In this document: positions 4,206-18,733 of the stretch, piece after piece
Layout of the letters: every line of letters begins with the position of its first letter
Position numbering within the stretch: position 1 is the first letter of the stretch
Virus record (IMG/VR): IMGVR_UViG_3300023109_001242
Location: 1 to 53,044 of that record
DNA length: 53,044 nt
Direction: 5' to 3' (one strand)
Origin: a virus
Lineage: Duplodnaviria > Caudoviricetes
Made by a program: the position numbers and the translations under genes
Notes under the pieces: model-generated
What the model saw: the letters and a program-made list of their open reading frames with translations, nothing else
Database searches by the model: none
What the model was told of the DNA's origin: nothing

Positions 4206-4416
4206 AGTAACAAAGAAAAGACATTTAGCTAAAGCAGTAACATGGAGAATTATAGCAAGTATTACCACAGCAGCAATTGCACTATATTTTGGATTACCTC
4301 AGAAAGCAGTCGGAGCTGTATTTCTTGCTGATATAATAATAAAGTTCGTATTATACTATGGCCACGAAAGGCTTTGGTATAATCATATTAAATATGGAGT
4401 AAAACAAGATGATTGA
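4198..4416 (+). CDS. Small membrane protein (DUF2061-like)
   Basis: KRHLAKAVTWRII...K.VLYYGHERLW pattern; start revised to ATG 4198. Confidence 0.7.
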   Translation: MSEVTKKRHLAKAVTWRIIASITTAAIALYFGLPQKAVGAVFLADIIIKFVLYYGHERLWYNHIKYGVKQDD

Positions 4417-4834
4417 TTATGAAACAGCCTTTGATTACAAAAAACCTTCGGTGCAAATGTTGGGCAGATGGCAGCCATGGCATGACGGCCACACAAAATT
4501 ATTTAAAAAAGCCTTGACAATCACGGGACAAGTTGTTATAATGGTACGTGACGTGTTTAAATTTGACGGTGACGCTGGAGCAGGACGTACAACCACACAG
4601 GACGATAATCCTTTTGGTATGATCCAAACTATTGAAGGCATTGAAGCTGGACTGAGAGAACATGGTTATGAAAATGGTCGTGAGTATCTGATACTTGAAG
4701 TACCAAACATCGTTGACATTAGTTATGGTCGAGGTGTTGGTTATACATTTACAGAGCACGACTTGGGTGAAGAAACGCATGCGATATCAGCAACTGCTAT
4801 TCGTGCACAAATGAGAGAAGAAGGTAAATTATGA
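4409..4834 (+). CDS. HxGH-family nucleotidyltransferase (cytidylyltransferase-like)
   Basis: MLGRWQPWHDGH, DNPF and C-terminal ISATAIR motifs. Confidence 0.75.
   Translation: MIDYETAFDYKKPSVQMLGRWQPWHDGHTKLFKKALTITGQVVIMVRDVFKFDGDAGAGRTTTQDDNPFGMIQTIEGIEAGLREHGYENGREYLILEVPNIVDISYGRGVGYTFTEHDLGEETHAISATAIRAQMREEGKL
4514..4542 (+). promoter_or_regulatory. Sigma70-type promoter embedded in the nucleotidyltransferase CDS
   Basis: TTGACA(4514-4519)-N17-TATAAT(4537-4542) with TGn extension; would serve def-gp47-gp46. Confidence 0.65.
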
Positions 4835-5388
4835 AATTAGTATCTAACAAGGACGAAATCTTAGCTACAGGACTCGAGCCATTTGACTTTGAAAGTGTCG
4901 ACGCGGTCGACATAAAGAAATCACTTGTCGACATAATGATAAAACATAAAGGTGTTGGCCTATCTGCGAACCAAGTTGGCCTCAATTACAGGTGTTTTGT
5001 AATGGGTGAGAGCAAAGAAGCTGCCATTATGGTAATCAATCCTGAGATCCATGGATATGGTGAAGAACAAGATTGTGAAGTTGAAGGTTGTTTAAGTTTT
5101 CCAGATGTGTTCGTTAAGATCACAAGACCCACTTCAGTACAAGCTAAATGGTACGATGAGCACGGTGAAGAACAAGGTGGTATACTTGAAGGGTATGGAG
5201 CTAGAGTCTTTATGCATGAGTTTGACCACTTAAACGGAGTCGTATACCGAGACAAAGTATCTCGTCTCAAATGGGAACGCGCTCTTAAAAAGAGAGATAA
5301 AATACAGAAGCAGCGAAAGCAAATGGTTGAGTACATGCACAAAGCGCAAGCAGCAATTAACCAAGCTCAGTCTGCTCAAAAGGACTAA
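4831..5388 (+). CDS. def: Peptide deformylase
   Basis: GVGLSANQVG, EGCLS and HEFDHLNG motifs. Confidence 0.93.
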   Translation: MKLVSNKDEILATGLEPFDFESVDAVDIKKSLVDIMIKHKGVGLSANQVGLNYRCFVMGESKEAAIMVINPEIHGYGEEQDCEVEGCLSFPDVFVKITRPTSVQAKWYDEHGEEQGGILEGYGARVFMHEFDHLNGVVYRDKVSRLKWERALKKRDKIQKQRKQMVEYMHKAQAAINQAQSAQKD

Positions 5389-5389
5389 T

Positions 5390-6451
5390 ATGAAAATTGC
5401 AATCGTCACTGATCTACATTTCGGTGCAAGAGGAGACAGCCGTGTATTCCATGAAGTACAACGAAAATTCTTTGAGGAAGTATTCTTTCCTTACATTGAT
5501 GAACATAATATCACAACAGTATTTGATCTTGGTGATACTTTTGATAGACGTAAGTATGTAAACTTTGTTAGTCTACAAAGGTGTAGAGAATTCTTTTTCC
5601 AAAATCTAGCTGATCGTGATATTGATTTTCATTGTCTTATTGGTAACCACGATATCTATTATACGAACACAAATGAAATCAATAGTATGAGCTTACTACT
5701 TAATGATTTCAAACAATTTAATTTATATGAAGATAAAGCAGAACACGTTACGTTAGGTTCTACTACATTCTTAATGCTTCCTTGGATTAATAAAGAGAAT
5801 GCAGAGTACAACCATAAGATGTTAGCTGAAAGCAAAGCTGATGTTGTAATGGGTCACCTTGAAGTCAAAGGCTTTGAGATGCTTAAAGGAGTACCATGTA
5901 CTCACGGTACTGAGATGAATGTATTTAAGAACTTTGAAGATGTTTACTCTGGTCACTTCCACCATCCATCACGGTATGGTAACATCGAATATCTCGGAGC
6001 TCCTTATGAAATGACATGGTCAGATTATAATGGCAGTCGTGGGTTCCACGTATTTGATACTGAAGATCGTACTATGACTAAGTATGAAAATCCTAACAAA
6101 GTGTTCTATAAAATAGATTATGACGATTCAGACTGGACAGTAGATGACGTAGCTAATTTTGACGTTGATCGCTATAAAGATACATTTGTTAAAGTCATAG
6201 TTAAAAATCGCACCAACGCGTATTTGTATGATCTCTTTATGAGTCGTATGAGTGAATGTGGTGCAGTCGATGTAAAAGCAATCGATGATAATTTAAACTT
6301 GGAAGGTGCTGGTGTCGACGAGATACTTGACGAGACAAAAGATACTGGTGAGATCCTTCATCAATATATAGATAGCATAGAAACCCAAGTTGATAAATCA
6401 CGAGTAAAACAAGTTATCGACGACCTATATCATGAGGCCCTTAGTTTATAA
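5390..6451 (+). CDS. gp47: Recombination endonuclease subunit (Mre11/SbcD-like)
   Basis: DLHFG, DLGDTFD, GNHD and SGHFH metallophosphoesterase motifs; start revised to ATG 5390 after AGGA. Confidence 0.93.
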   Translation: MKIAIVTDLHFGARGDSRVFHEVQRKFFEEVFFPYIDEHNITTVFDLGDTFDRRKYVNFVSLQRCREFFFQNLADRDIDFHCLIGNHDIYYTNTNEINSMSLLLNDFKQFNLYEDKAEHVTLGSTTFLMLPWINKENAEYNHKMLAESKADVVMGHLEVKGFEMLKGVPCTHGTEMNVFKNFEDVYSGHFHHPSRYGNIEYLGAPYEMTWSDYNGSRGFHVFDTEDRTMTKYENPNKVFYKIDYDDSDWTVDDVANFDVDRYKDTFVKVIVKNRTNAYLYDLFMSRMSECGAVDVKAIDDNLNLEGAGVDEILDETKDTGEILHQYIDSIETQVDKSRVKQVIDDLYHEALSL

Positions 6452-8160
6452 TGAGAATTACATTCAAGCAGATAAAGTATAAGAATATTTTATCAACAGG
6501 AAATACGTTTACAACGATCAACTTTAATGACAAACCAACTACTCTTGTGAGTGGTACTAACGGTGCTGGTAAATCTACACTACTTGACGCTATTGTTTAT
6601 GGTTTATACGATAGACCTTTCCGTAAGATCAATAAAGTGCAGCTGATTAATACAATCAATACTAAAGAGTTATTGGTTGAGTTATACTTTACAGCTGGTG
6701 GTAACAACTATATGATTCGTAGAGGTATGAGACCAGCTATATTTGAAATATGGAAAGATGGTCTAATGATTAACCAAGACGCTGCTAAGAAAGATTACCA
6801 AGAATTCTTAGAGCAATCTATCCTTGGAATTAATTATAGATCATTCAATCAAATTGTTGTATTGGGTTCAGCTACCTATATTCCTTTTATGGAACTCAAT
6901 GCAGGTCAGCGTCGTATTATTATCGAAGACTTACTTGATATCCAAGTGTTTAGTACTATGGGTATACTTGCTAAGAATAGTATGAACGAAAACAAAGATG
7001 ATATCAATGACAATGCTTATAAGATTGAGATCATCGAAAACAAAATTGACAGCGCCAAAGAAAACAATAACGAAATACGTAAGATTAAGGAAACAGAAGT
7101 ATCCAAAATCAAAGAGCGTATGGGAGTAGAGATTGAAACTGTAGAAGGTAAGAATAATCTTATTGATACTCAAGATGAGATTATTAAAGTACTCTATGAT
7201 GATATCTCTGATAAGCCTGATGAGAAACAAAAGTTTACTGAAGCGACTGAACAAAGAGCCGAACTCGAAAGAAACAGAATAACATTTGAAAAAGAACTAT
7301 CGTTCTATGAACACAACGACGACTGTCCAACGTGTAAACAAGGTATTGCTCACGACTTTAAATCTGATCAAATCAATGAAAAGAACAAACTCAAATCAGA
7401 TATAGAACAAGGTTTAGTTAACATAGCTAGTACTATTAAAAAGCACCAGACAAGACTGAACTCAATATCTAAAATTGAAGAACAAATACAACAAGTAAAC
7501 TTTAAGATCTCAGAATATCGTGCTGAAATCAAAATGTCTAAGAACGCTTTACGTTCTATGAAAGGCGAACTTGATGCTGCACAAAAAGAGGTTGAAGAAG
7601 TTGACACATCTAAGCTGCAAAAGCTTGAAGAGTCCATTGAGAAGAAAACTAAAGAACGTACAGAACTGCTTGAAGAGCGTGAGATATTGAATGTTGTTCG
7701 TACTATACTACAAGATGGTGGCATCAAAGCACGTATCATCAGTCAGTATATTCCCGTTATGAACAAGCTTATCAACAAGTACTTGGCTGCGTTTGATCTC
7801 TTTGTTGACTTCCAACTCGATGAGAACTTTAATGAGATTATCAAATCACGTTTCAGAGATAAGTTCTCTTATGCTTCTTTCTCAGAAGGTGAGAAGTTAC
7901 GTATCACACTTGCAATTATGTTAACATGGCGATCAGTCGCTAAGCTACGTAATTCAGTATCTACCAACCTTCTGATACTTGACGAAACACTTGATGGTGC
8001 ACTTGACGGTGTAGGTATCGAGAGTTTAATTGAAACGTTACACAGTCTGAATGCTGATGATAACGTATTTGTTATATCACACAGAGGCGATCAGTTCGCC
8101 GAGAAGTTTGATACTTCTATCACATTTGCGAAGGTGAAAAACTTCAGTGAGATTGTATAA
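6451..8160 (+). CDS. gp46: Recombination ATPase subunit (Rad50/SbcC-like)
   Basis: GTNGAGKS, CPTC zinc hook, FSEGEK signature, LILDE Walker B. Confidence 0.95.
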   Translation: MRITFKQIKYKNILSTGNTFTTINFNDKPTTLVSGTNGAGKSTLLDAIVYGLYDRPFRKINKVQLINTINTKELLVELYFTAGGNNYMIRRGMRPAIFEIWKDGLMINQDAAKKDYQEFLEQSILGINYRSFNQIVVLGSATYIPFMELNAGQRRIIIEDLLDIQVFSTMGILAKNSMNENKDDINDNAYKIEIIENKIDSAKENNNEIRKIKETEVSKIKERMGVEIETVEGKNNLIDTQDEIIKVLYDDISDKPDEKQKFTEATEQRAELERNRITFEKELSFYEHNDDCPTCKQGIAHDFKSDQINEKNKLKSDIEQGLVNIASTIKKHQTRLNSISKIEEQIQQVNFKISEYRAEIKMSKNALRSMKGELDAAQKEVEEVDTSKLQKLEESIEKKTKERTELLEEREILNVVRTILQDGGIKARIISQYIPVMNKLINKYLAAFDLFVDFQLDENFNEIIKSRFRDKFSYASFSEGEKLRITLAIMLTWRSVAKLRNSVSTNLLILDETLDGALDGVGIESLIETLHSLNADDNVFVISHRGDQFAEKFDTSITFAKVKNFSEIV

Positions 8161-8217: not shown

Positions 8218-10761
8218 ATGATGACATCATTCTACACTTCAGTCGAGCGATATGGCAAAAACATTCTATGGCGTGGTTATGAAAACGGTAAACGTTTCTC
8301 GTACAAAGTTCCATACAAGCCAACGCTCTATCTAAGCAGTAACAAAGCAGGAGAAGAGGGATTTACCCCTCTCAAAGGTAACAGCAAAATCAGTCCGCAC
8401 CAGTTCGGTTCCATGGCTGAAAGCAAAGACTTCATCGAGGAATACAAAGGTGTTTCCAACATGAAGATCTATGGTAACACAAACTATATCACTCAATTCA
8501 TACAAGAAAGCTATCCTGATGATATCAAATATGATATCAAAGATGTTAATATCGTATCATTTGATATCGAGGTTGATATCGCTGATGGCTATCCCAATGT
8601 TGAATATGCAGATAAAGAAATCACATCGATCGCTTATAAATCTTCTAAGAGCAGTAAGTACTTCCTACTTGGTCGCAAAGACTACGATAAGACACAAACT
8701 GTTACTGGTATTGATCCAGACGACATTGTCTTTATTAAATTTGAAAGTGAAGAGCAATTACTACGAAGGTTCATAGAGTTATGGGTAGCAGAATATCCTG
8801 ACATTGTTACTGGTTGGAACGTTCAATACTTTGATATCCAGTATCTTATAACTCGTATTACAAACTTAATGGGTGACGATGTTGCAGCTCGACTCAGTCC
8901 TTGGAAAAACGTTAAACGATTCAGCAGAGAGTTCTTTGGTAAGATGCAATCTTCTTACAATATCTCGGGTGTTTCTGTTATTGACTACATGGATTGTTTC
9001 AAGAAGTTCGGTTACAAGTATGGTCCTCAAGAATCATTTAAACTTGACCATATTGCATATGTTGTTCTTGGTGAAAAGAAACTTGACTATTCTGAATATG
9101 GTAACCTCAACGACTTATACGAAAAGAACCCACAACTATATCTCGACTATAACTTAAAAGACACACAGCTTATACAACGACTTGAAGATGAAACATCTCT
9201 ACTTGCTCTTGTTATGACTGTTGCTTATGGTGGTGGTGTAAACTACCAAGACGCTTTCGGTACTGTTGGTATATGGGAATCTATTATCTACAGACGATTG
9301 ATGAAAGATAAGATTGTTCCACCAATCAAAGAGTCACCTGGTATGCGAGGTAAAGAACTCGTAGGTGGTTACGTTAAAGATCCAAAACCTGGTATGTATC
9401 CATGGGTTGTATCGTTTGACTTGAACTCACTGTATCCTCACTTAATGTTACAATACAACATGTCACCTGAAACTTATATGCCAGATGAACGTGAGTATGT
9501 AACTCAAGACATGGTACTTGATGGTAAGTTTAAAAACAATAATGGTATGTCGGTTGGTGCTAATGGTGTATGTTTCAGTAATGAAAAAGTTGGTATTATC
9601 CCAGGCATCATTCAAGAGTACTACGACGAACGTGCTCTTATCAAAAAGCAGATGCTTGCAGTTGAACAACAACTTGAGGTTGAAACAGACCCAACTGAAA
9701 AGCGTAAGCTTAAAACAGAAGCTAACCAATTACACAATTCTCAAATGTCTATTAAGATTTCGATGAACTCACTCTACGGAGCTACAGCAAACATCTACTT
9801 CTTATATTATATTGGAGAAATGGCAGAAGCTATTACAACGTCTGGTCAACTCTCTATTCGATATGCTCAAAAGTCTGTTAACGAATATCTCAACAAGGTA
9901 CTCAAAACAAAAGACCATGACTATATCATCTATATTGACACTGACTCAATCTATGTTGACTTCGCTTCACTGATTGAAAAGGTCTATGGTACTACAGACA
10001 TTGATCGTAAGACAGGAGAAGAGTTCCTAGATAAAGTCTGCAAGACTAAGATCGAACAAATCATCGAAGATGGTTACGAACAACTTGCATCTGACATGGG
10101 TGCCTATCGTAATGCCATGGTAATGAAACGAGAGAAGATTAACGATCGAGCAATCTTTATTGCTAAGAAACGTTACATACTGAATACTCTCAACTCAGAA
10201 GGTGTTCATTACGAAAAGCCAAAGATCAGTGTAACAGGACTTGAGTCTGTACGATCAAGCACACCTGAAGTCTGCCGTGATAAAATGCGTGAGATCTTCA
10301 GCGTGATTCTAAACGAAGGTGAAGAGCAGACACAACAGTTTATTGGTAACTTTAAACAAGAGTTCTTTAAGATGCCAGCGCAAGACGTTGCTAAAAACTC
10401 TGGTACTGATAGTATTTCTAAATATCAAAACAGAACTAATCTTTATAATAAAGGTTGTCCCATACACGTACGTGGCTGTATCTTATTTAACCACTATCTG
10501 AAAGAAAGTAATCTTACTAAACGATACGAACCTATTCAAGGTGGTGACAAGATCAAATTCGTTTATCTTAAAGTACCAAACCCTATCAAAGAAAATGTGA
10601 TCTCATTTCCAAACTTCTTACCCAAAGAGCTTGGACTAGAGCAATACATTGACTACGAAACACAATTTAACAAAGTATTCCTAAGCCCTATTGAAAACAT
10701 TATTTCACCACTCGGCTGGACTGCAGAAAAACAAGATACACTTGACTCATTTTTCGGTTGA
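8218..10761 (+). CDS. gp43: Family B DNA polymerase
   Basis: FDIEV exonuclease motif, SFDLNSLYP, KISMNSLYG, YIDTDS; C-terminal TLDSFFG clamp-binding-like tail. Confidence 0.97.
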   Translation: MMTSFYTSVERYGKNILWRGYENGKRFSYKVPYKPTLYLSSNKAGEEGFTPLKGNSKISPHQFGSMAESKDFIEEYKGVSNMKIYGNTNYITQFIQESYPDDIKYDIKDVNIVSFDIEVDIADGYPNVEYADKEITSIAYKSSKSSKYFLLGRKDYDKTQTVTGIDPDDIVFIKFESEEQLLRRFIELWVAEYPDIVTGWNVQYFDIQYLITRITNLMGDDVAARLSPWKNVKRFSREFFGKMQSSYNISGVSVIDYMDCFKKFGYKYGPQESFKLDHIAYVVLGEKKLDYSEYGNLNDLYEKNPQLYLDYNLKDTQLIQRLEDETSLLALVMTVAYGGGVNYQDAFGTVGIWESIIYRRLMKDKIVPPIKESPGMRGKELVGGYVKDPKPGMYPWVVSFDLNSLYPHLMLQYNMSPETYMPDEREYVTQDMVLDGKFKNNNGMSVGANGVCFSNEKVGIIPGIIQEYYDERALIKKQMLAVEQQLEVETDPTEKRKLKTEANQLHNSQMSIKISMNSLYGATANIYFLYYIGEMAEAITTSGQLSIRYAQKSVNEYLNKVLKTKDHDYIIYIDTDSIYVDFASLIEKVYGTTDIDRKTGEEFLDKVCKTKIEQIIEDGYEQLASDMGAYRNAMVMKREKINDRAIFIAKKRYILNTLNSEGVHYEKPKISVTGLESVRSSTPEVCRDKMREIFSVILNEGEEQTQQFIGNFKQEFFKMPAQDVAKNSGTDSISKYQNRTNLYNKGCPIHVRGCILFNHYLKESNLTKRYEPIQGGDKIKFVYLKVPNPIKENVISFPNFLPKELGLEQYIDYETQFNKVFLSPIENIISPLGWTAEKQDTLDSFFG

Positions 10762-10786
10762 CAAATGGATTCAAATGTGTTATAAT
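10758..10786 (+). promoter_or_regulatory. Sigma70-type early promoter overlapping the gp43 stop codon
   Basis: TTGACA(10758-10763)-N17-TATAAT(10781-10786). Confidence 0.85.
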
Positions 10787-11097: not shown

Positions 11098-11309
11098 TAA
11101 AGATATACGGAAAAGATAATTGTGGCTATTGTAATATGGCTAAGCAGTTATGTGAACAGAAAGGCTTAGAGTACGAATACCTAAGCCTTGGTCTAGATTA
11201 CTTGCAAGACGAATTTTTTGAAATGTTCCCTGGTGCAAGGACTTTCCCACAAATAACAATGGAAGGTGAAAACATCGGTGGATTTACTGAATTGAGAGAA
11301 TTAGTATGA
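11094..11309 (+). CDS. Glutaredoxin (NrdC-like)
   Basis: CGYC active site, TFPQI, IGGF. Confidence 0.9.
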   Translation: MIKIYGKDNCGYCNMAKQLCEQKGLEYEYLSLGLDYLQDEFFEMFPGARTFPQITMEGENIGGFTELRELV

Positions 11310-11707
11310 GTAAAAATTGGGTAGAAGATATACACTTAATGCAAAGTAAATATCTTACAAGACAATGGGTTGAAGCTAATCCTGAAAAACTTAAAGAGTT
11401 CTTAGATTTTAGAATTAAATTTTTAGAAGAAGAACTAGGAGAAACACGTAAAGCTGTAGCAGAAAATGATCCAGAAGAAATCGTAGATGGTTTAATTGAT
11501 CTATGTGTTGTGGCTATTGGTACGCTTGATGCTTACGGTGTCAATCCTTACAAAGCTTGGGACGAAGTACTCAAAGCAAATATGAACAAAGAGGTTGGTG
11601 AAAAACCAAGCAGACCAAATCCACTCGGTGTGCCAGACCTCGTTAAACCAGAATCATGGTATCCACCCTCTCACGAAGGTAACCATGGTAAATTCTCAGA
11701 CTTATAG
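11306..11707 (+). CDS. MazG-like all-alpha nucleotide pyrophosphohydrolase
   Basis: EEELGE...EEIVDGLID...EV..ANM.K...DLVKP..W.PP pattern. Confidence 0.75.
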   Translation: MSKNWVEDIHLMQSKYLTRQWVEANPEKLKEFLDFRIKFLEEELGETRKAVAENDPEEIVDGLIDLCVVAIGTLDAYGVNPYKAWDEVLKANMNKEVGEKPSRPNPLGVPDLVKPESWYPPSHEGNHGKFSDL

Positions 11708-11718
11708 GAGATTATATT

Positions 11719-11952
11719 ATGAAAAATTTGAGAGAAAATATCCTAGCAGCTTTAATCGCTAGGTACAACGCATCTATTGCAGAAGCAAAAGTTAACATTG
11801 AAGTTCTATTAGAATCACACGTTGGTGTGGCAGAACATCCAGGTACTGTTGAAACAATCGACGGTGAACTAGCTAAACTAGCAGAAGCAGAAGACAAGCT
11901 AGCAAACATTCAGAAGTCTTTCGCAGCACCAATCCCACCTAAAGTTGTTTAA
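11719..11952 (+). CDS. Conserved phage hypothetical protein (helical hairpin)
   Basis: AGGAG RBS; NIEVLLE..VGVAEH pattern recalled from marine T4-like phages. Confidence 0.7.
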   Translation: MKNLRENILAALIARYNASIAEAKVNIEVLLESHVGVAEHPGTVETIDGELAKLAEAEDKLANIQKSFAAPIPPKVV

Positions 11953-11959
11953 AAAAGGG

Positions 11960-11988
11960 TTGACAAACACATTTAGATGTGTTATAAT
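11960..11988 (+). promoter_or_regulatory. Sigma70-type early promoter for the nucleotide-modification operon
   Basis: TTGACA(11960-11965)-N17-TATAAT(11983-11988), A-tract upstream. Confidence 0.85.
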
Positions 11989-12011
11989 ATATTTTTATTA
12001 TGGAGCAAGCT

Positions 12012-12356
12012 ATGACCAAACAGGTTAACCCAGTTTCGGTTGATGTACTGCAAGAGTGCGTTGACCTACAATTGAAAAAGTCGAGAGATTATCAAAATCC
12101 AAACTCGACTGTTCAGCAAGCCGACTACTATCCTAACGGAATCACAACTATACATGATATCATGCATGCAAAAATGCTACGTATGAAATCAGTTATGGAA
12201 GCGATGCAGTCGGACGATTACGATCCTAACTTTGAGTCCCTTGAAGACTCAGCTAAAGACTTAATTAACTATTCTAGTTTCTTTGTCTCTTACTGTCGTC
12301 AAGGTATTAAAGGTCAGGATTCAACTAAAGACGTATTTAACAGGACTATATCATGA
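12012..12356 (+). CDS. Nucleotide-modification-associated all-alpha protein (DUF1599/Nmad1-like)
   Basis: L..KKSRDY...K..R......ESLEDSAKDLINYS pattern; GGAG RBS before ATG 12012. Confidence 0.65.
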   Translation: MTKQVNPVSVDVLQECVDLQLKKSRDYQNPNSTVQQADYYPNGITTIHDIMHAKMLRMKSVMEAMQSDDYDPNFESLEDSAKDLINYSSFFVSYCRQGIKGQDSTKDVFNRTIS

Positions 12357-12607
12357 GTAACATTATTATACCTTCAAGCGAAGAAGACAGAAAACGCATC
12401 CGTGGAGCATTCGAAGAGATCAGCAATTCATTTGTTAGAATCGAAGGTGAACGCTCTTTCCAAAAAGACGCTATCGAAGCTTTGGCAGAAGATGTAGATA
12501 TTCCAAAGGGAACACTACGTAAAGCTGCAAGAGTATTTCACAGGCAGAACATCAGTTCAGTAGTAACTGAAGTTGAAGACATGGAAGCATTACTGGAATC
12601 TATCTAA
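12353..12607 (+). CDS. dsDNA-binding protein (T4 DsbA-like)
   Basis: 84 aa helical; EISNS..RIE.E....KDAI......DIPK..LRK.AR.FH.QN pattern. Confidence 0.6.
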   Translation: MSNIIIPSSEEDRKRIRGAFEEISNSFVRIEGERSFQKDAIEALAEDVDIPKGTLRKAARVFHRQNISSVVTEVEDMEALLESI

Positions 12608-13275
12608 TGAAACAAGTCCAAGACATTCGTAACATCATTATGAACAAGTATCTTCTTGAAGATTATACTGTTGATCGTACTGGTGCAAAAACTATCGAAG
12701 TCTTTGGTGAATCGTTTCTTGCCGATGAAGACTACGTAATTCGTAAACCTGCGTATAAGTATATTGAACGTGAATTAGATTGGTACAAATCAGAATCGTT
12801 ATATGTTGACGACATTCCTGGAGAGACACCACAAATATGGAAAGATATATCTTCTGATGAAGGTAAGATCAATTCAAATTATGGTTGGTGTATCTATTCA
12901 GAAGAGAATGGCCATCAGTATAAACACGTACTTCGTGAGTTAAAATCTAATCCTAATAGCCGTCGTGCTTCAATGATTTATAACCGACCAAGTATGCATC
13001 TTGACTTCAGCCGTGATGGTATGAACGACTTTATGTGTACTTTCAGTAATACATTTATGATCCGAGATAATAAACTTATCTCACACTATGTGATGCGATC
13101 TAATGATGCTGTCTTCGGTTATAACAATGATTACGCTTGGGCTAAGTATGTTCAATCACAACTCGCTGAAGATCTAGACATTGAAGCAGGTGATCTAATC
13201 TGGACAGCAACCAACTTTCATGTATACGAAAGACACTTTGACCAAGTTGAGGCGTTAATTAATGCAGGTAAATAA
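12607..13275 (+). CDS. gp42: dCMP hydroxymethylase-type thymidylate synthase homologue
   Basis: ERELDWY.S.SL, INSNYGW, SRRA.MIY.RPSM, DFMCT (catalytic Cys), MRSNDAVFGYNNDYAW. The Asp at the specificity position matches T4 gp42 (dCMP) rather than the Asn of dUMP enzymes. Confidence 0.85.
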   Translation: MKQVQDIRNIIMNKYLLEDYTVDRTGAKTIEVFGESFLADEDYVIRKPAYKYIERELDWYKSESLYVDDIPGETPQIWKDISSDEGKINSNYGWCIYSEENGHQYKHVLRELKSNPNSRRASMIYNRPSMHLDFSRDGMNDFMCTFSNTFMIRDNKLISHYVMRSNDAVFGYNNDYAWAKYVQSQLAEDLDIEAGDLIWTATNFHVYERHFDQVEALINAGK

Positions 13276-13735
13276 ATGGGACCAAAGATTTACAAGACTA
13301 GCTAGAGAAGTAGCTACTTGGTCAAAAGATCCAAGTACACAGATTGGCGCAGTGATTGTAAACGACGAACGTAGAGTATTAGCTACTGGTTATAACGGTT
13401 TCCCAAAAGGAATAGCCGACACACCAGAGAGATACGAAGATAAAGAAGTGAAATACGAAACAGTAATTCACGCAGAAATGAATGCTATCTATAACGCTAC
13501 ATACAATGGTATCTCTTTAAAAGATTCTACCATTTATGTTTGGGGATTACCTGTGTGCAACGATTGTGCAAGAGGGATCATTCAAGTTGGTGTTAAAAGA
13601 GTTGTAATGGCAACTGCTGGAGAAATTCCAGAGAAATGGGTCGCTTCATTTTCTAAATCTTTTAATCTATTTCTTGAAGCTGGAGTCACCACAGAGTTCC
13701 TACAAGGACCTACGGTGTTAGAACTTCATAAATAA
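13262..13735 (+). CDS. cd: dCMP deaminase
   Basis: SKDPSTQIGAVIV, TGYNG, HAEMNAI, PVCNDC zinc motifs. Confidence 0.9.
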   Translation: MQVNKWDQRFTRLAREVATWSKDPSTQIGAVIVNDERRVLATGYNGFPKGIADTPERYEDKEVKYETVIHAEMNAIYNATYNGISLKDSTIYVWGLPVCNDCARGIIQVGVKRVVMATAGEIPEKWVASFSKSFNLFLEAGVTTEFLQGPTVLELHK

Positions 13736-13786
13736 TATAATATATAAACACACCTTTATAATGTACCAGTGAGAACTACCTGAACA

Positions 13787-14869
13787 ATGAGAATACTTCT
13801 ACCATACTTTACAAGAAACAATATTGAGATTACAGACTCTGTTGTTATTGGTGGTGTAGAGCGTTTCGCACAGTTAATTTATCAAAATTTTGACGATGTG
13901 ATACCTGTACATTTTACAGATGAAGATCGAAAGAAGCGTAGAGTGACTGATAAAATCACTGCTGCTATTGATACTTACTCACCAGATGTTGTTATTGTAA
14001 ATTATGATAACGCACCACTTACTACTAGATTACAAGCAAAAACTAATACACCTATATTATGGATTAGTCATACCGCTGCTGGTGGTATTTCTAAAATTGG
14101 TCATATGCAACAAATGCATGAGTTCCAAGAAAAGGGTGGAGTAGTTGCGTTTGTATCTAAACATCAACATCTCGGTATGGATAAATTAAGTCAACGAATA
14201 GAAAAGAAACCATTGCCTATTGTCGATTTTATTAATTCAGCCTTTTGTAGTGGTGATGAGAAGGTACTTGAAAAAACTTATGATGCAGTGACGATCGGTC
14301 GTACAGATAAAACAAAAAATCCATTTTGGATGCCCAAGAAACTTGACGGCTCTGGATTACATAATATCGTATTGACATCTCACGTATCTGAATTATTGTA
14401 TGGTGAACATCTTAAATACTACGAAGACAATACCAAATGGGAACGTCCAAACGAAGTATTGCGTAACTTACCTTACGATCAAGTTATGACTTATATGGCT
14501 CAAGCTGGTTGCTATGTGTCAACATGTCCTGTAGAGACTTGGGGTATTACTGCTCTTGAAGCACTTGCTCATGGTCTACCTACTATACTTGTAACGAACA
14601 CAACTGACTCCCATGCATCCGAGTCGATCCCGGTCATAAATAAAGATATAATCAAAGTACGATCAACTATTAAAGGCGAAGACCTTGCTGATATTGTTCG
14701 ATCTTTAAACAAGTTAACCTTTACAGAGAGACAAGACATCTCTGAAAGGACCAAAGCAAAACACAGCTTATGGGCTTGGAAGAAAAACATTGAAAAAGTG
14801 TTGACAAAAACTATAGAATGTGTTATAATAGATAATAATGACGAAGCTTCCCTGAGTAGCTTCTTTTGA
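13787..14869 (+). CDS. GT-B fold glycosyltransferase (GT4-like)
   Basis: N-terminal GGVERF; E-x7-E motif ETWGITALEALAHGLP. Confidence 0.8.
   Translation: MRILLPYFTRNNIEITDSVVIGGVERFAQLIYQNFDDVIPVHFTDEDRKKRRVTDKITAAIDTYSPDVVIVNYDNAPLTTRLQAKTNTPILWISHTAAGGISKIGHMQQMHEFQEKGGVVAFVSKHQHLGMDKLSQRIEKKPLPIVDFINSAFCSGDEKVLEKTYDAVTIGRTDKTKNPFWMPKKLDGSGLHNIVLTSHVSELLYGEHLKYYEDNTKWERPNEVLRNLPYDQVMTYMAQAGCYVSTCPVETWGITALEALAHGLPTILVTNTTDSHASESIPVINKDIIKVRSTIKGEDLADIVRSLNKLTFTERQDISERTKAKHSLWAWKKNIEKVLTKTIECVIIDNNDEASLSSFF
14801..14829 (+). promoter_or_regulatory. Sigma70-type promoter embedded in the 3' end of the GT4-like CDS
   Basis: TTGACA(14801-14806)-N17-TATAAT(14824-14829), extended -10. Confidence 0.8.
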
Positions 14870-14887
14870 TAATTATGGAGAAATTGA

Positions 14888-16012
14888 ATGAAAATCTTAA
14901 TCACTGGCTTTAACAAAGAGCAATGTACACGTGATTATTTTCTAGGTAAAGAACTCAAGATCCTTAATTCACACTATTCGCTTATCCGATGCCTCGAAGC
15001 TATGGGACACGAGATTGAGCAAAGACCTGTGAGTATTGGTGAGAATCTAACTGCCTATGATAAAGTTATTGTGTACCTCTCATCTGTAAAATCTTTCAGT
15101 CACCACGCTTTTGACGCGCTGTATGCACTCAAAGCAAGACCTGACGCGCTTCTTGGAAACGATGATTGGCAAGTACGCGAAGTATTTGTATCGTTTAAAC
15201 TATACCAAGAGAACCTTAGAGAATGGAAAGAAACTGGTAAGCCGTTCCTTGAATATGGAACAAACAAATACCTGGCTGATCTTTACAAAGGTGATACTAA
15301 ACTCGAAAAGCTTGGTGATCATATTGATACATTCATTGAAGGTTGTGAAATCATTAACAGAAAAACAAATCCGTTAATTCTTTGTACCTTTGCAGGTGGT
15401 GACAACGATCTATTTAAGATTGGTTACAAAGGTGATATCATCAATTACAATCCTAATCCTTACAATTTAAATCGTAGACCAGAGAATAACTATGGTGAAG
15501 ATCCTGGTATCTTATCATTCTTTGATGATGAGCCAATCATTCTTCCACCCGATGAAAAGAAAATGCGTTGGGTATTCTCATCTATCGTTCAAAGTAAAAC
15601 AATGCCTTGGTTCAATAAACAAACACCAACATGGGATGTTTTAAACTTTGGCCCAAGACGAGAAACTAAACTTACTAAAGGTATCGAAACATTCCGTGTT
15701 AAAGAGCCTGAGATGTGCAGAATCTATAATGAAAACTGGGGTTGTATGATGCCAGAGTATTATCATGCTGGTTCAGCTTGGTGGAGATCTCGTGTTCAGC
15801 AAGTAGCTGATGTAGAGTCTGTCCTAGTATGTTCAGATAAAGAAGGTGCCATCTATGGTGAAGCTTATGTAGGTAATACACTAGCGAGTGTTGAGAATAT
15901 GTCACTCGAAGAGCTAACCAAACTTGGTAAAGATCAAAAAGAATGTTTGTACGATAACCATCCACTCGATAAAAGAGTACAACAGCAAGAATTAGAGGCA
16001 ATAGTACAATGA
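14888..16012 (+). CDS. Putative divergent GT-B-like DNA-modifying transferase
   Basis: MKILITG...CLEAMGHEI Rossmann-like start, 374 aa, location among modification genes; family not firmly recognised. Confidence 0.5.
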   Translation: MKILITGFNKEQCTRDYFLGKELKILNSHYSLIRCLEAMGHEIEQRPVSIGENLTAYDKVIVYLSSVKSFSHHAFDALYALKARPDALLGNDDWQVREVFVSFKLYQENLREWKETGKPFLEYGTNKYLADLYKGDTKLEKLGDHIDTFIEGCEIINRKTNPLILCTFAGGDNDLFKIGYKGDIINYNPNPYNLNRRPENNYGEDPGILSFFDDEPIILPPDEKKMRWVFSSIVQSKTMPWFNKQTPTWDVLNFGPRRETKLTKGIETFRVKEPEMCRIYNENWGCMMPEYYHAGSAWWRSRVQQVADVESVLVCSDKEGAIYGEAYVGNTLASVENMSLEELTKLGKDQKECLYDNHPLDKRVQQQELEAIVQ

Positions 16013-17250
16013 AACACGCAGCAATTATACCACTGATCGGTGGTGAGGTATTAGCTTCAGATGATGCTTACGGAGTCACTCCAGAATATATGATGACTTA
16101 TAGCGGATTTGAAGGTAATGAGAAACATCTAAGAAATCATTATGCACAACAAGGTGTCGACGTACCTTACCATATTATTGATGGAGATAATGCACCTAAG
16201 CGTTACAAGAAAGTTGATGTTGTTTCATCAGTATGTCCTTGTGCAGGCTTAAGTAGTTATCACAGTTCTTACGGTGAAGACAATCCAAATAACCAATGGA
16301 TGGAAAAATCAACTAAGTTTGTATTGAATGAGATTGGTCCTAAAGTATTATGGGGTGAGAATGCTCCTGCTTTGGCAACCAACGTCGGCGCATTTATGAG
16401 AAAGAAACTTCTTAAAACTGCCAATGAAGCTGGTTATAATATGACCATCTATACTACGAAGACATTATTACATGGTACTCCGCAGATACGAAGACGATCA
16501 TTCTACTTCTTTTGGAAAAGAGATTACTTTAAGAATAAAGTTCCTGTATTTAATTACTTCAAAAAAGAACATCCAACGATCGCTCAATTACTGATGGAGA
16601 ATAAAAGTAATTTCCAAACAGAAACAATTAACTCTAAGATTCCATCTGTTGATGATCCTTACTATAAGTACTTCTTAGAAGAAATCAAAGGCGGAATGAC
16701 TCACGCAGAGTTTGCAAAAGAGTTAAGAGAAGATGAAACTTTCACAAAGCCTTCTTTTAATGTTGAAAGTGAAATGATCCTTGGTGATTATAAAGGACAA
16801 TGCAACTACAAAGAGCTATCTGAATATATGGCTGCTCAAGGCCTTGAAAGAGAAGCTGCAAAGTGTTTAAGACGATACGAAAAGCTTAAGTCAGGTAAAG
16901 GTGTAATGTGGCGAGGAACAATTATTCCTGTCAAACATATTGGTGCATTCGTTGTACATATGCCTCACGTTCTGACTCACCCTGTAGAAGATAGATATAT
17001 AAACTATAGAGAAGCCATGACCATCATGGGTCTTCCACAAGATTATGAATTACTTGATCCTGAGAAAAGCGTCAATCACATTTGTCAAAATGTTCCGTTC
17101 AATACTGCTAGAGATATGGCTACTCAAGTCAAAGCAGCGATCGAGCGCAAACTTCCTATGGAAGATGCTTCATTCATGTACCAAGACAATATGTCTCAAA
17201 GAATACGAGAGACTACATCAACAGTTGATATTACAGAGTTTATGACATGA
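16009..17250 (+). CDS. Divergent C5-cytosine DNA methyltransferase homologue
   Basis: Motif IV CPCAGLS, VI GENAP, VIII PQIRRR, IX RYINYREAMTIMGLP, X ICQNVP; motif I reads IPLIGG rather than FxGxGG. Confidence 0.8.
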   Translation: MKHAAIIPLIGGEVLASDDAYGVTPEYMMTYSGFEGNEKHLRNHYAQQGVDVPYHIIDGDNAPKRYKKVDVVSSVCPCAGLSSYHSSYGEDNPNNQWMEKSTKFVLNEIGPKVLWGENAPALATNVGAFMRKKLLKTANEAGYNMTIYTTKTLLHGTPQIRRRSFYFFWKRDYFKNKVPVFNYFKKEHPTIAQLLMENKSNFQTETINSKIPSVDDPYYKYFLEEIKGGMTHAEFAKELREDETFTKPSFNVESEMILGDYKGQCNYKELSEYMAAQGLEREAAKCLRRYEKLKSGKGVMWRGTIIPVKHIGAFVVHMPHVLTHPVEDRYINYREAMTIMGLPQDYELLDPEKSVNHICQNVPFNTARDMATQVKAAIERKLPMEDASFMYQDNMSQRIRETTSTVDITEFMT

Positions 17251-17870
17251 AGAAAAATTTAGTACTTGATTTTGAAACAATGGGTGTTGACCCAACTACG
17301 TGTGCAGTCGTTGACTGTTCAGTAATGATCTTTGATTGGGATGAGTTTACACAAAACCCTTATGGCTTAAAAGATATCAGCAAGACTCGTAGGTTTAAGC
17401 TTAATGTACAAGAGCAAGTAAAAGACTATGGATATAAGATCGAAGATTCTGTTTTAGAATTTTGGTCTAAGCAAGATAAAGAAGTACGTGCTCGTGTCAA
17501 ACCAACACAGCAAGACTTGACTGTTAAAGAGTTTGTATCTAACTTTCATAATCTAGTTGTTGATGAGAATATTGGTCACTGGTGGACAAGAGGTAATGCT
17601 TTTGATCCTGTAATCTTGACAAGACTTTTTGATAGCCAAAAAAGAGGCAACCATCTTAATACTTATCTAAAATATTATATGGTTCGTGACATGCGGACTT
17701 ATATTGATGCCAAATTTAATTTTGACACAAAAAACGGTTTCTGCCCGATCGCTGATGATAAACTATGGGAAAGAGCATTTAAACAACATGATAGTTCTTG
17801 GGATGTATTAGCAGATGTGCTTAGACTTCAAGCGATCGCTCGAGCTGAAAATGACATGGAGCAAATCTAA
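17247..17870 (+). CDS. dexA: DEDDh 3'-5' exonuclease DexA
   Basis: LDFETMG, WTRGNAFD, RDMRTYID, HDS.WD...D motifs. Confidence 0.85.
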   Translation: MKKNLVLDFETMGVDPTTCAVVDCSVMIFDWDEFTQNPYGLKDISKTRRFKLNVQEQVKDYGYKIEDSVLEFWSKQDKEVRARVKPTQQDLTVKEFVSNFHNLVVDENIGHWWTRGNAFDPVILTRLFDSQKRGNHLNTYLKYYMVRDMRTYIDAKFNFDTKNGFCPIADDKLWERAFKQHDSSWDVLADVLRLQAIARAENDMEQI

Positions 17871-18733
17871 TGAAGATTGAAATCAAAACAGAAGAACTAA
17901 GAAAACATAAAATATTTGTAGGTACACCAATGTATGGTGGCCAAGCAACTGGTTTATACACTAAAGCAACGAATGACTTGAGCATGTTATGTGCAGCTCA
18001 TGGTATTACTTTAAAGTACTACTTCTTATTTAATGAGAGCCTTGTACAAAGAGCTCGTAACTATATAGCAGATGAATTTTTAAGATCTGATTGTAGTCAT
18101 TTATTATTCATTGATGCTGATATCGCGTTTAATCCAAAAGACGCGCTTGCATTACTTGGTATCCATTTACAAAATCCAGAAGAATATCCTATTGTTACTG
18201 GTCCTTATCCTAAGAAAACAATTGCTTGGGAAAAGGTTGCTAAGGCAGCTCAAATGGGCAAGAGTGATGATGATCCATTTGAATTAGCACGGTTTACATC
18301 AGACTTTGTATTTAATCCTGTAAAAGGAATGAAGCAATTTAAGTTAAGTGAACCAGTTGAAGTACAAGAAGCAGGAACTGGGTTTATGTTAATCAGTAGA
18401 GAAGCATTTGAGAAATATCGTGATGCTTATCCTGAGTTATCCTACTTACCAGACCACGCAAGAACAGAACAATTTGATGGCACAAGAGAGATTACAGCTT
18501 TCTTTGATTGTGTTATCGACCCCGAATCCAGGCGCTACTTATCAGAAGATTACTTCTTCTGTCATAAAGCTCGTGATGCTGGCTTAAAGGTATGGATGTG
18601 TCCTTGGATGCACCTAAACCATGTTGGCACCCACATATTCCAAGGCGGAATGGGCTCTATAGCAGAGCTTGGTGTAACCGCAACTGCAGACTCGACTTCT
18701 AATAAAAAGTCGTACAAAACAGTTGACAAATAA
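17870..18733 (+). CDS. GT-A fold glycosyltransferase-like protein
   Basis: TPMYGG, NESLVQRARN, LLFIDAD (DxD), GTGFMLI, SEDYFFC, L.HVG. Confidence 0.65.
   Translation: MKIEIKTEELRKHKIFVGTPMYGGQATGLYTKATNDLSMLCAAHGITLKYYFLFNESLVQRARNYIADEFLRSDCSHLLFIDADIAFNPKDALALLGIHLQNPEEYPIVTGPYPKKTIAWEKVAKAAQMGKSDDDPFELARFTSDFVFNPVKGMKQFKLSEPVEVQEAGTGFMLISREAFEKYRDAYPELSYLPDHARTEQFDGTREITAFFDCVIDPESRRYLSEDYFFCHKARDAGLKVWMCPWMHLNHVGTHIFQGGMGSIAELGVTATADSTSNKKSYKTVDK

What the first reader, a model, noticed from the sequence alone, without database searches (positions are those of the whole stretch)
11306..18733. Candidate new cytosine hypermodification system: gp42-type enzyme, three glycosyltransferase-like genes and an atypical C5-MTase homologue
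Seen: a co-oriented block between gp43 and gp45 with a MazG-like pyrophosphatase, a DUF1599/Nmad1-like protein, a thymidylate synthase homologue with the dCMP-specifying Asp (RSNDAVFGYNND), a dCMP deaminase, a GT4-like GT-B enzyme, a second GT-B-like protein, a C5-MTase homologue, DexA and a GT-A DxD protein. Established: T4 makes hm-dCMP with gp42 and glucosylates it after replication with alpha- and beta-glucosyltransferases. Inference: none of the three transferases looks like a close T4 agt/bgt copy, and a C5-MTase cannot methylate an already C5-substituted cytosine. The block may therefore build a different, possibly multi-sugar or mixed, cytosine modification for anti-restriction or anti-CRISPR protection.
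Basis: partly seen in the sequence, partly recalled or inferred. Interest (0 to 1): 0.85.

Follow-up and report, generated by a model that had tools for sequence, protein, structure and literature searches.

The report
Clamp-linked hydroxymethylcytosine sugar-coating module in phage
An uncultured T4-like water phage carries a T4-type gene set for putting hydroxymethylcytosine into its DNA, two non-T4 sugar-adding enzymes in a slot that differs from phage to phage, and a conserved cytosine-methylase look-alike whose job in such DNA is still unexplained.

Summary
In detail: all eleven co-oriented genes lie at 11306-18733 between gp43 and gp45.

- **Hydroxymethylase.** The thymidylate-synthase homologue is a T4 gp42-type dCMP hydroxymethylase (52% identity). 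It keeps Asp at the positions equivalent to E. coli ThyA 143, 169 and 177, so it is not a 5-hydroxy-dCMP synthase.
- **Variable slot.** In 60 related viral contigs the stretch between this gene and the methylase homologue holds 23 different gene sets. They include T4 alpha-glucosyltransferase-like genes, sugar-nucleotide enzymes and a DNA-base-kinase-like gene.
- **This window's slot.** It holds a GT4 enzyme and a 374-aa protein whose closest solved fold is T4 beta-glucosyltransferase.
- **Clamp tails.** GT4 and the methylase homologue end in the same peptide as the DNA polymerase, which suggests clamp tethering.
- **Methylase homologue.** It goes with the hydroxymethylase in 9 of 19 contigs, and both are absent from the other 10. 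Two further contigs have the hydroxymethylase alone.
- **GT-A protein.** It also occurs in phages without either gene, so it is not specific to this module.

Verdict: a new variant of T4-type cytosine hypermodification. No chemistry was measured, and the methylase homologue's reaction is unknown. Earlier notes of this scan describe the same cluster on other genomes.

The parts
10758..10786 (+). sigma-70-type promoter-like site (TTGACA-17-TG-TATAAT, 12 of 12) ahead of the 99-aa gene, glutaredoxin, MazG and the 77-aa gene
   Evidence: a consensus match only
11306..11707 (+). MazG-like all-alpha NTP pyrophosphohydrolase; inferred dCTP-clearing enzyme (role of T4 gp56, but with no sequence similarity to it)
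   Evidence: Pfam PRA-PH E 5.8e-11; phrog_671; BLASTP against T4 gp56 E 0.51; found upstream of the hydroxymethylase gene in relatives
11719..11952 (+). 77-aa conserved phage protein of unknown function
   Evidence: phrog_1811 E 5e-20
11960..11988 (+). promoter-like site (12 of 12) ahead of DUF1599-like, DsbA-like, hydroxymethylase, deaminase and GT4
12000..12356 (+). DUF1599/Nmad1-like protein (sub-threshold); fused to MazG-like domains in other phages
   Evidence: PF07659 E 0.025, below cut-off; matches the C-terminal half of phrog_18404, whose N-terminal half matches the MazG gene
12353..12607 (+). DsbA-like small transcription regulator
   Evidence: phrog_639 E 1.6e-13; Pfam Phage_DsbA below cut-off
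12607..13275 (+). gp42-type dCMP hydroxymethylase (5hm-dCMP synthase)
   Evidence: PDB 1b49 E 3e-71; 52% identity to T4 gp42; Cys146, Asp143, Asp169 and Asp177 equivalents present
13262..13735 (+). dCMP deaminase; start overlaps the hydroxymethylase stop
   Evidence: Pfam E 2e-22; phrog_174
13787..14869 (+). GT4-family GT-B glycosyltransferase with E-x7-E motif and a polymerase-like C-terminal tail (ASLSSFF); candidate DNA glycosyltransferase
   Evidence: Pfam Glycos_transf_1 above cut-off; tail; found in 11 of 80 related loci
14801..14829 (+). promoter-like site (12 of 12) inside the GT4 3' end, ahead of the 374-aa gene, methylase homologue, DexA-like gene and GT-A gene
14888..16012 (+). 374-aa GT-B protein with T4 beta-glucosyltransferase-like fold; candidate hmC DNA glycosyltransferase
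   Evidence: model pLDDT 78.4; Foldseek top hit T4 BGT 1nzd, E 1.6e-6, TM 0.54/0.57; homologues lie beside UDP-galactopyranose mutase in Erwinia phage FBB1, and in relatives of the L068/L075 group UDP-galactopyranose mutase lies between the homologue and the methylase homologue
16009..17250 (+). atypical DNA cytosine-C5 methyltransferase-fold enzyme with a clamp-type C-terminal tail; start overlaps the stop of the 374-aa gene
   Evidence: Pfam PF00145 E 6.9e-18 from residue 62; TIGR00675 33 bits against a cut-off of 100.65; fold; family alignment
17247..17870 (+). DexA-like 3'-5' exonuclease
   Evidence: phrog_255 E 2.4e-31; Pfam Rv2179c-like E 3.4e-15
17870..18733 (+). GT-A-like D-x-D protein with a basic tail; a conserved neighbour of gp45, not specific to the hmC module
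   Evidence: invariant D82-A-D84; sub-threshold GT-A hits; distribution

Best explanation
The block is the cytosine-modification part of the replication gene cluster of an uncultured T4-like phage.

**Step 1, before replication (inferred from homology).**
- The MazG-like pyrophosphatase returns dCTP to dCMP.
- The gp42-type enzyme converts dCMP to 5-hydroxymethyl-dCMP.
- The deaminase feeds dUMP to a separate ThyX, which is seen in complete relatives.
- An unidentified kinase and the host complete hm-dCTP, and gp43 builds hmC DNA.

**Step 2, after replication (inferred from fold, tails and neighbours).** The GT4 enzyme is a retaining-type GT-B protein with a polymerase-like clamp tail. The 374-aa protein has the T4 beta-glucosyltransferase fold. 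Both add sugars to the hmC hydroxyl from host-made NDP-sugars. They could give two linkages, or a disaccharide, that differ from T4's.

**The slot.** These two genes occupy a slot that is swapped between related phages, so the sugar coat is the diversifying part.

**Step 3 (least certain).** The conserved methylase-fold enzyme rides the clamp and attacks C6 of cytosines in new DNA. It most likely methylates cytosines that escaped replacement.

**The GT-A protein.** It is a general neighbour of gp45 and is not part of the hmC chemistry.
For: **gp42 type**
- E 3e-71 to the T4 enzyme structures, with the same MRSND..G..ND motif, and 52% identity to T4 gp42.
- Among 45 aligned homologues, Asp177 is present in 45, Asp169 in 44 and Asp143 in 44.
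- The rule that Asp169 becomes Asn in 5-hydroxy-dCMP synthases comes from PMC13326640 (sections read).
- Two near-complete relatives each have one thymidylate-synthase-family gene plus a ThyX.
- PRA-PH together with an Asp177 thymidylate-synthase homologue and a dCMP deaminase is a reported signature of cytosine-modified viromes (bioRxiv 10.1101/2024.12.05.627091, passages read).

**The slot**
- 60 loci carry both the hydroxymethylase and the methylase homologue, with 23 different slot contents; 52 of the 60 hold a recognisable glycosyltransferase.
- Contents include PF11440 DNA alpha-glucosyltransferase (13 loci), PF20691 TET-associated glycosyltransferase, UDP-galactopyranose mutase, an epimerase, UDP-glucose dehydrogenase, and a kinase with a nucleotidyltransferase.
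- The cultured Pseudoalteromonas phage XG4 has the same layout.

**The 374-aa protein**
- Its top solved-structure match is T4 BGT.
- Homologues occur in Aeromonas phage 25 and Erwinia phage FBB1, which both carry hm-type gp42 genes.

**Clamp tails**
- Only 4 of 100 window ORFs of 60 aa or more end in the motif: gp43, GT4, the methylase homologue and one antisense ORF.
- In relatives the tail is on glycosyltransferase, kinase and TAGT groups, and not on the sugar-nucleotide enzymes.
- Clamp with the methylase tail in complex prediction: weak support. Median score 0.48 (runs 0.48, 0.43, 0.53); best of 3 controls 0.00. The mark was reached by 58 of 80 solved complexes and 2 of 110 mismatched pairs, but at 0.60 or under by only 7 of those 80 and by both mismatches that passed. 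The runs agree in at least 40% of contacts, and the partner's pLDDT is at least 37.

**Link between the methylase homologue and gp42**
- 39 of 39 loci with at least 7 kb upstream of the methylase homologue have the hydroxymethylase.
- In a sample anchored on the GT-A gene, 9 loci have both genes and 10 have neither, of 19.

**Expression**
- Four perfect sigma-70-like promoters suggest early transcription.
Against: - No nucleoside chemistry exists for this phage or for any close relative.
- No T4 gp1-type dNMP kinase was found in two near-complete relatives or in XG4. Nothing rang anywhere in that search and it had no positive control.
- The MazG-like protein has no sequence similarity to T4 gp56.
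- The window's block holds no sugar-nucleotide gene, so the sugar is unknown.
- Phage C48C1 has a 33% homologue of the 374-aa protein but no thymidylate-synthase-family gene.
- The 374-aa protein lacks a clear polymerase-like tail.
- Two loci have the hydroxymethylase without the methylase homologue (L117 and L122).
- The loci are not de-replicated: 77 methylase ORFs give 48 distinct sequences, and some contigs occur in both samples.
- Clamp-peptide complexes have been solved (recalled, not checked here), so the docking pass may come from memory.
- If replacement by hmC is complete, a mop-up methylase has little to do.
Confidence: 0.62

Rival explanations
1. The methylase-fold enzyme is not a methylase here. 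It uses its Cys/Glu/Arg machinery on DNA for other chemistry at C5. It might install hydroxymethyl groups on leftover cytosines, so that they too can be glycosylated, or it might exchange or remove the hydroxymethyl group of hmC.
For: - Pfam, the PDB profile search and hhalign align only from about residue 62. The motif I-III region is not recognised.
- Motif I reads PLIGG and motif X reads CQNVP. No conserved acidic residue follows strand 2.
- The protein scores 33 bits against the TIGR00675 cut-off of 100.65.
- It co-occurs with a C5-blocking pathway.
- The distant S-TIM54 homologue also lies two genes from a thymidylate-synthase homologue with Asp at position 177.
- SAM-free hydroxymethyl chemistry of C5-methylases in vitro is recalled from the literature and was not checked here.
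Against: - G11-G12, D58 (motif III-like) and the motif X Asn are invariant.
- The more canonical paralogues (XG4, L024) share PLIGG and are aligned by Pfam from profile position 10.
- No natural enzyme of this fold is known to do such chemistry.
- No ligand modelling was possible.
Confidence: 0.2
2. The transferases act on non-DNA acceptors such as host envelope glycans or proteins. The DNA carries only plain hmC, with some 5mC from an ordinary anti-restriction methylase.
For: - GT4 and GT-A families mostly serve glycan synthesis.
- The GT-A protein occurs without the gp42-type gene.
- A C48C1 homologue of the 374-aa protein occurs without any thymidylate-synthase-family gene.
- There are no sugar-nucleotide genes in the window's block.
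Against: - GT4 carries the polymerase-type tail.
- The same slot holds PF11440 DNA alpha-glucosyltransferase and PF20691 TET-associated glycosyltransferase in relatives.
- The best fold match of the 374-aa protein is a DNA glucosyltransferase.
- The genes are embedded between gp43 and gp45 behind early-type promoters.
Confidence: 0.12
3. The thymidylate-synthase homologue is a flavin-dependent 5-hydroxy-dCMP synthase, as in RB69 and DLP3, and the module makes ether-linked glycosyl-5-hydroxycytosine.
For: - The best cultured-phage hits include Acinetobacter and Serratia T4-like phages.
- GT4's only cultured-phage homologues are in Pootjesviridae, a family reported to carry glycosylated 5-hydroxycytosine (PMC13326640).
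- XG4 has a phosphatase with a nucleotidyltransferase-kinase cassette like the published arabinose genes.
Against: - The diagnostic Asp169-to-Asn change is absent. The window reads RSND like T4, and 44 of 45 homologues keep Asp.
- The solved 'thymidylate synthase' entries 9iqu and 9iqc, which carry Asn at that position, match only at E 2e-14.
Confidence: 0.04

Closest known systems
T4 hydroxymethylcytosine pathway (gp56, gp42, gp1, then alpha- and beta-glucosyltransferase)
   Same: - A gp42 orthologue at 52% identity with the same active-site signature.
- A separate dTMP route.
- Early genes beside the replication genes.
- A BGT-fold protein in the window.
- AGT-family genes in the same slot in relatives.
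   Different: - No gp56 or gp1 homologue was detected.
- The transferases share no sequence similarity with agt or bgt.
- There is an added methylase-fold enzyme.
- The DNA-acting enzymes carry polymerase-like tails.
- The transferase slot is hypervariable.
Glycosyl-5-hydroxycytosine systems of RB69, DLP3 and RL38J1 (PMC13326640)
   Same: - A thymidylate-synthase homologue next to several GT-B transferases.
- Sugar-nucleotide cassettes in relatives.
- Distant GT4 homologues in Pootjesviridae.
   Different: Asp169 is kept, so hydroxymethylation rather than hydroxylation is expected. The window has no arabinose genes.
Phage methyltransferase/TET/glycosyltransferase clusters (PMC8256090, listing and abstract only; bioRxiv 10.1101/2023.12.21.572611, abstract and outline only)
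   Same: A C5-methylase-fold gene next to DNA glycosyltransferases that act on hmC. A TET-associated glycosyltransferase occurs in the slot of two relatives.
   Different: hmC comes from a nucleotide-level gp42 enzyme. No Tet_JBP match was found in 5 relatives, although the control did not ring either.
DNA cytosine-C5 methyltransferases (M.HhaI, M.HaeIII, Dcm) and CmoX (PMC12783734)
   Same: The fold, the PC nucleophile, the ENx glutamate, QxRxR, and motifs IX and X.
   Different: - The N-terminal cofactor motifs cannot be aligned.
- PCA replaces PCQ.
- The score is far below the dcm model's cut-off.
- Asn, not the CmoX arginine, sits at the motif X position.
- The protein has a clamp-type tail and a constant link to a gp42-type gene.

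Membership tests
T4 gp42-type dCMP hydroxymethylase | Thymidylate-synthase fold with the catalytic Cys (E. coli ThyA Cys146) | tested here: met
   Pfam PF00303 E 1.6e-24; Cys present in 45 of 45 aligned homologues
T4 gp42-type dCMP hydroxymethylase | Asp at ThyA Asn177 (dCMP specificity) and an acidic residue at Leu143 (hydration) | tested here: met
   NDFMCT and RSNDAVFGYNND align with T4 SDFMCT and RSNDVVFGFRND
T4 gp42-type dCMP hydroxymethylase | Product is 5hm-dCMP | not testable with these tools
   needs the in vivo LC-MS assay
T4-type complete cytosine replacement | gp56-type dCTPase and gp1-type dNMP kinase | tested here: not met
   MazG against gp56, E 0.51; no gp1 match in 3 records, but nothing rang and there was no positive control. 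Analogues are not excluded
5-hydroxy-dCMP synthase (RB69 gp48 / DLP3 gp80) | Asn at ThyA Asp169 | tested here: not met
   Asp in the window and in 44 of 45 homologues
T4 beta-glucosyltransferase family | Sequence membership | tested here: not met
   BLASTP E 0.57; no Pfam hit even at E 10
T4 beta-glucosyltransferase family | Fold likeness | tested here: met
   top Foldseek hit 1nzd, E 1.6e-6, TM 0.54/0.57; model pLDDT 78.4
T4 alpha-glucosyltransferase (PF11440) | Pfam match | tested here: not met
   The window's GT4 matches Glycos_transf_1 only. PF11440 is matched by a slot gene of 13 relatives
DNA cytosine-C5 methyltransferase | Motifs IV (PC), VI (ENx), VIII (QxRxR), IX and X | tested here: met
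   All invariant in 32 homologues; aligned to M.HaeIII and M.HhaI
DNA cytosine-C5 methyltransferase | Canonical SAM motifs I-III (FxGxG, acidic residue after strand 2) | tested here: inconclusive
   PLIGG; no conserved acid after strand 2; the region is not aligned by Pfam, the PDB profile or hhalign. G11-G12 and D58 are invariant
DNA cytosine-C5 methyltransferase | Curated family score | tested here: inconclusive
   Passes the Pfam cut-off (65.6 against 22) and fails TIGR00675 (33.1 against 100.65)
CmoX carboxymethyltransferase | SPPC motif and Arg at M.HhaI Asn304 | tested here: not met
   VCPC, and Asn in CQNVP aligned to the GN of M.HaeIII; criteria from PMC12783734
Methyltransferase/TET/glycosyltransferase clusters | TET/JBP dioxygenase present | tested here: inconclusive
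   None in the block; 0 of 5 relatives, but the control rang nowhere
GT-A glycosyltransferase (287-aa protein) | Family match and D-x-D | tested here: inconclusive
   Invariant D-A-D; four GT-A families at E 0.013-0.12, all below cut-off; an Atlas neighbour cluster has Anp1 in 32% of members

The most novel reading that the evidence does not exclude
The conserved methylase-fold protein is a sliding-clamp-tethered enzyme that performs a natural non-methyl reaction at cytosine C5 in freshly replicated DNA. It would either hydroxymethylate leftover cytosines or substitute the hydroxymethyl group of hmC. This would make it a post-replicative partner of the nucleotide-level gp42 route in a very abundant group of aquatic T4-like phages.
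Probability: 0.2. Interest if true: 0.9.

Novelty: new variant of a known kind. Interest (0 to 1): 0.62.

Why it matters
T4-type hmC glycosylation is the textbook case of phage DNA camouflage. This module suggests three additions.

- **A swappable sugar slot.** In abundant uncultured aquatic T4-like phages the same nucleotide-level chemistry feeds a swappable slot of DNA-decorating enzymes. That slot is a ready source of new DNA glycosyltransferases and sugars.
- **Coupling to the replication fork.** The DNA-acting enzymes carry the polymerase's tail, which suggests that modification is coupled to the replication fork.
- **An unexplained enzyme.** The constant pairing of a C5-blocking pathway with a C5-methylase-fold enzyme is a clear, testable puzzle. 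The family has 2,426 protein clusters at E <= 1e-5. A cultured carrier, Pseudoalteromonas phage vB_Psh_XG4, makes it testable.

Tried and rejected
**Searches and readings that led nowhere**
- Megablast of the block against cultured phages gave no match.
- The 5-hydroxy-dCMP synthase reading was rejected on Asp169.
- The CmoX reading was rejected because the protein has no SPPC motif and no Arg.
- TET route: no Tet_JBP match in 5 relatives, but the control did not ring, so this is weak.
- T4 gp1 search: nothing rang in 3 records and there was no positive control.
- The P-loop kinase at 3789-4205 as the missing hm-dCMP kinase: it has only APS-kinase-like weak hits. It is present in 2 of 5 relatives, so it is not core.
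- hhalign of the methylase family against E. coli Dcm was meant to map motifs I-III. Only motifs IV-VIII aligned, with a probability of 0.28%.
- No model coordinates were available to inspect the cofactor pocket.

**Literature**
- Searches found no paper on a gp42-type gene paired with this methylase family.
- The eLife MetaGPA paper had 0 hits for six terms.
- The methylase in the Thanatos paper is a Dam type.
- The phiM12 and Cr30 search gave nothing on the GT-A protein.
- Supplements were closed. The supplementary tables of PMC13326640, of the glycosyltransferase preprint and of the MetaGPA papers may list related contigs.

**GT-A protein**
- It was rejected as an hmC-specific transferase.

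Full report
**What is there**

The window is a 53-kb fragment of an uncultured T4-like virus, estimated 25% complete. Its gp43 is at most 44% identical to that of cultured phages.

Family and fold searches confirm the calls. Two labels rest on sub-threshold matches:
- DUF1599: E 0.025.
- The GT-A nature of the 287-aa protein: four GT-A families at E 0.013-0.12, plus an invariant D-A-D.

Four perfect TTGACA-17-TG-TATAAT sites divide the block into units:
- 10758: the 99-aa gene, glutaredoxin, MazG and the 77-aa gene.
- 11960: DUF1599-like, DsbA-like, hydroxymethylase, deaminase and GT4.
- 14801: the 374-aa gene, methylase homologue, DexA-like gene and GT-A gene.
- 18723: gp45 and what follows.

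These are consensus matches only.

**The thymidylate-synthase homologue**

It matches the solved T4 dCMP hydroxymethylase at E 3e-71 and true thymidylate synthases only at about 1e-13. It is 52% identical to T4 gp42.

A 2026 paper shows that look-alike enzymes of RB69, DLP3 and others make 5-hydroxy-dCMP. It gives Asn at the ThyA Asp169 position as their signature (PMC13326640, sections 24, 25, 28 and 29 read).
- The window reads MRSND like T4.
- Among 45 aligned sequences (window, T4, XG4, S-TIM54 and 41 loci), Asp177 is present in 45, Asp169 in 44 and Asp143 in 44.

Two near-complete relatives (100% and 91% complete) each have this one thymidylate-synthase-family gene plus a ThyX. The homologue is therefore not the dTMP synthase.

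PRA-PH, an Asp177 thymidylate-synthase homologue and a dCMP deaminase lying together is a reported mark of cytosine-modified viromes (bioRxiv 10.1101/2024.12.05.627091, passages only).

Against a full T4-type pathway:
- The MazG-like protein is unlike gp56.
- No gp1-type kinase was found, in a search where nothing rang and there was no positive control.

**Relatives and the slot**

A scan of viral contigs with the methylase homologue gave 117 confirmed relatives, of which 80 were kept.
- Where the flank allows, the hydroxymethylase lies upstream: 39 of 39 loci with at least 7 kb of flank, and 46 of 48 with at least 5 kb. The two exceptions end just short of where their close relative has the gene.
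- The GT-A gene follows in 61 of 61 loci.
- gp45 follows in 56 of 56 loci.

Between the hydroxymethylase (or deaminase) and the methylase homologue, the content varies. There are 23 compositions among 60 loci. Representatives match the following:

| Slot gene | Loci |
|---|---|
| Family of the 374-aa protein | 29 |
| PF11440 DNA alpha-glucosyltransferase | 13 |
| GT4 | 11 |
| NAD epimerase | 9 |
| PF18723 5-hmdU-DNA-kinase-like, with an inositol-1-phosphate-synthase-like gene | 8 |
| GT4-like protein of 406 aa | 6 |
| UDP-galactopyranose mutase | 5 |
| PF20691 TET-associated glycosyltransferase, with UDP-glucose dehydrogenase | 2 |

Other slot genes are a kinase with a cytidylyltransferase and an FkbM methyltransferase.

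The loci are not de-replicated: 77 methylase ORFs give 48 distinct sequences.

The cultured Pseudoalteromonas phage vB_Psh_XG4 has the same layout. It carries a hydroxymethylase (45% identity), a phosphatase-like gene, a nucleotidyltransferase-kinase fusion, two glycosyltransferases and a methylase paralogue.

**The window's two slot genes**

- GT4 passes Pfam's Glycos_transf_1 cut-off and has an E-x7-E motif.
- The 374-aa protein has no sequence family. Its model (pLDDT 78.4) is closest to T4 beta-glucosyltransferase among solved structures (E 1.6e-6). It also resembles the phage HY126 glycosyltransferase.
- Homologues of the 374-aa protein occur in Aeromonas phage 25 and Erwinia phage FBB1, where the homologue sits next to UDP-galactopyranose mutase. 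Both phages have hm-type gp42 genes.
- Phage C48C1 has a homologue of the 374-aa protein without any thymidylate-synthase-family gene.
- Neither protein resembles T4 agt or bgt in sequence.

**Tails**

gp43 ends in TLDSFFG, GT4 in SLSSFF, and the methylase homologue in DITEFMT (TLEAFI-type in most relatives). Only 4 of 100 window ORFs of 60 aa or more have such an end, and one of those is an antisense ORF.

In relatives the tail is found on the GT4, GT4-like, kinase-like and TAGT groups, on an unnamed group, and on part of the AGT group. It is not found on the epimerase, mutase, dehydrogenase or nucleotidyltransferase groups.

That T4 gp43 binds gp45 by its C-terminal peptide is recalled knowledge.

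A docking test of three gp45 copies with the last 48 residues of the methylase homologue gave weak support:
- Median score 0.48; best of 3 controls 0.00.
- The mark was reached by 58 of 80 solved complexes and 2 of 110 mismatches. At 0.60 or under it was reached by only 7 of those 80 and by both mismatches that passed.
- The runs agree in at least 40% of contacts, and the partner's pLDDT is at least 37.
- A like complex may be in the model's memory.

**The methylase homologue**

The model (pLDDT 85.6) matches M.HhaI, M.HaeIII, DNMT1 and CmoX at about 1e-12.

Features invariant in 32 homologues:
- PLIGG, D58 and PCAGLS.
- WGENxP and QxRxR followed by FYFFW.
- DRY..YRE…MG.P.
- CQNV.

Pfam, the PDB profile and hhalign align it only from about residue 62. 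It scores 33 bits against a dcm model cut-off of 100.65. It is not CmoX.

The family is large: 2,426 protein clusters at E <= 1e-5 among the candidates scored.

A second sample, anchored on the GT-A gene, tests the link independently.
- Of 19 loci with at least 9 kb upstream, 9 have both the hydroxymethylase and the methylase homologue, and 10 have neither. Four of the nine come from contigs already in the first sample.
- Two further loci (L117, L122) have the hydroxymethylase with three unnamed genes and a DUF3310 protein, and no methylase homologue.
- The distant S-TIM54 homologue (29% identity) also lies two genes from a 'ThyA' that has Asp at position 177 and, by eye, Cys at position 143.

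What the enzyme does cannot be settled here. I favour methylation of cytosines that escaped replacement and keep a non-methyl reaction as the bold alternative.

**The GT-A protein**

It lies directly before gp45 in Cr30 and phiM12, which have only canonical ThyA genes with Asn177. It lacks the methylase homologue upstream in 34 of 52 viral loci with at least 2.5 kb of flank. It is a conserved replication-cluster gene of this wider phage group and is not an hmC-specific transferase.

**Comparison and verdict**

The module works like the T4 hmC glucosylation system. It is a member of that kind at the gp42 step only. The transferases, the added methylase-fold enzyme, the tails and the swappable slot make it a new variant.

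My searches found no paper on this pairing. Supplements were closed.

Earlier notes of this scan describe the same cluster and tails on other genomes. They are leads, not evidence.

Noticed in passing
window 3789-4834: A P-loop kinase (weak APS-kinase-like hits), a small ORF in the 204-bp gap, and an HxGH nucleotidyltransferase-like protein. Both larger proteins match the two halves of one 230-residue PHROG 'kinase' profile. The kinase is present in 2 of 5 relatives searched.
   Followed up: partly
L016, L018, L021-L023, L025, L026, L029 (slot upstream of the methylase homologue, e.g. L021:7718-8890): Eight relatives carry a different cassette instead of recognisable glycosyltransferases. It holds a 5-hmdU-DNA-kinase-like protein, an inositol-1-phosphate-synthase-like protein and an unnamed clamp-tailed protein. 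This hints at phosphate-activated chemistry on hmC.
   Followed up: partly
L090 (Pseudoalteromonas phage vB_Psh_XG4) 100-6580: This cultured, unannotated phage carries a hydroxymethylase homologue, a phosphatase-like gene, a nucleotidyltransferase-kinase fusion, two glycosyltransferases and a methylase paralogue. It is a practical test organism.
   Followed up: partly
L002 (Cyanophage S-TIM54) 3114-7203: The annotated 'ThyA' has Asp at the ThyA Asn177 position and, by eye, Cys at the Leu143 position. It lies two genes from a 29% homologue of the methylase-fold protein.
   Followed up: partly
L024 8778-11203: Two methylase-fold paralogues lie in tandem: an XG4-type copy and then a window-type copy.
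   Followed up: no
L117 73-4286 and L122 1337-6430: A hydroxymethylase homologue is followed by three unnamed proteins of 300-370 aa and a DUF3310 protein. There is no methylase homologue before the GT-A gene.
   Followed up: partly
L009 37-1158: The homologue of the 374-aa protein in this relative has an in-frame stop. It may be a pseudogene or a sequencing error.
   Followed up: no
window 10758, 11960, 14801, 18723: Four identical perfect extended -10 sigma-70 promoter-like sites lie on the + strand within 8 kb.
   Followed up: partly
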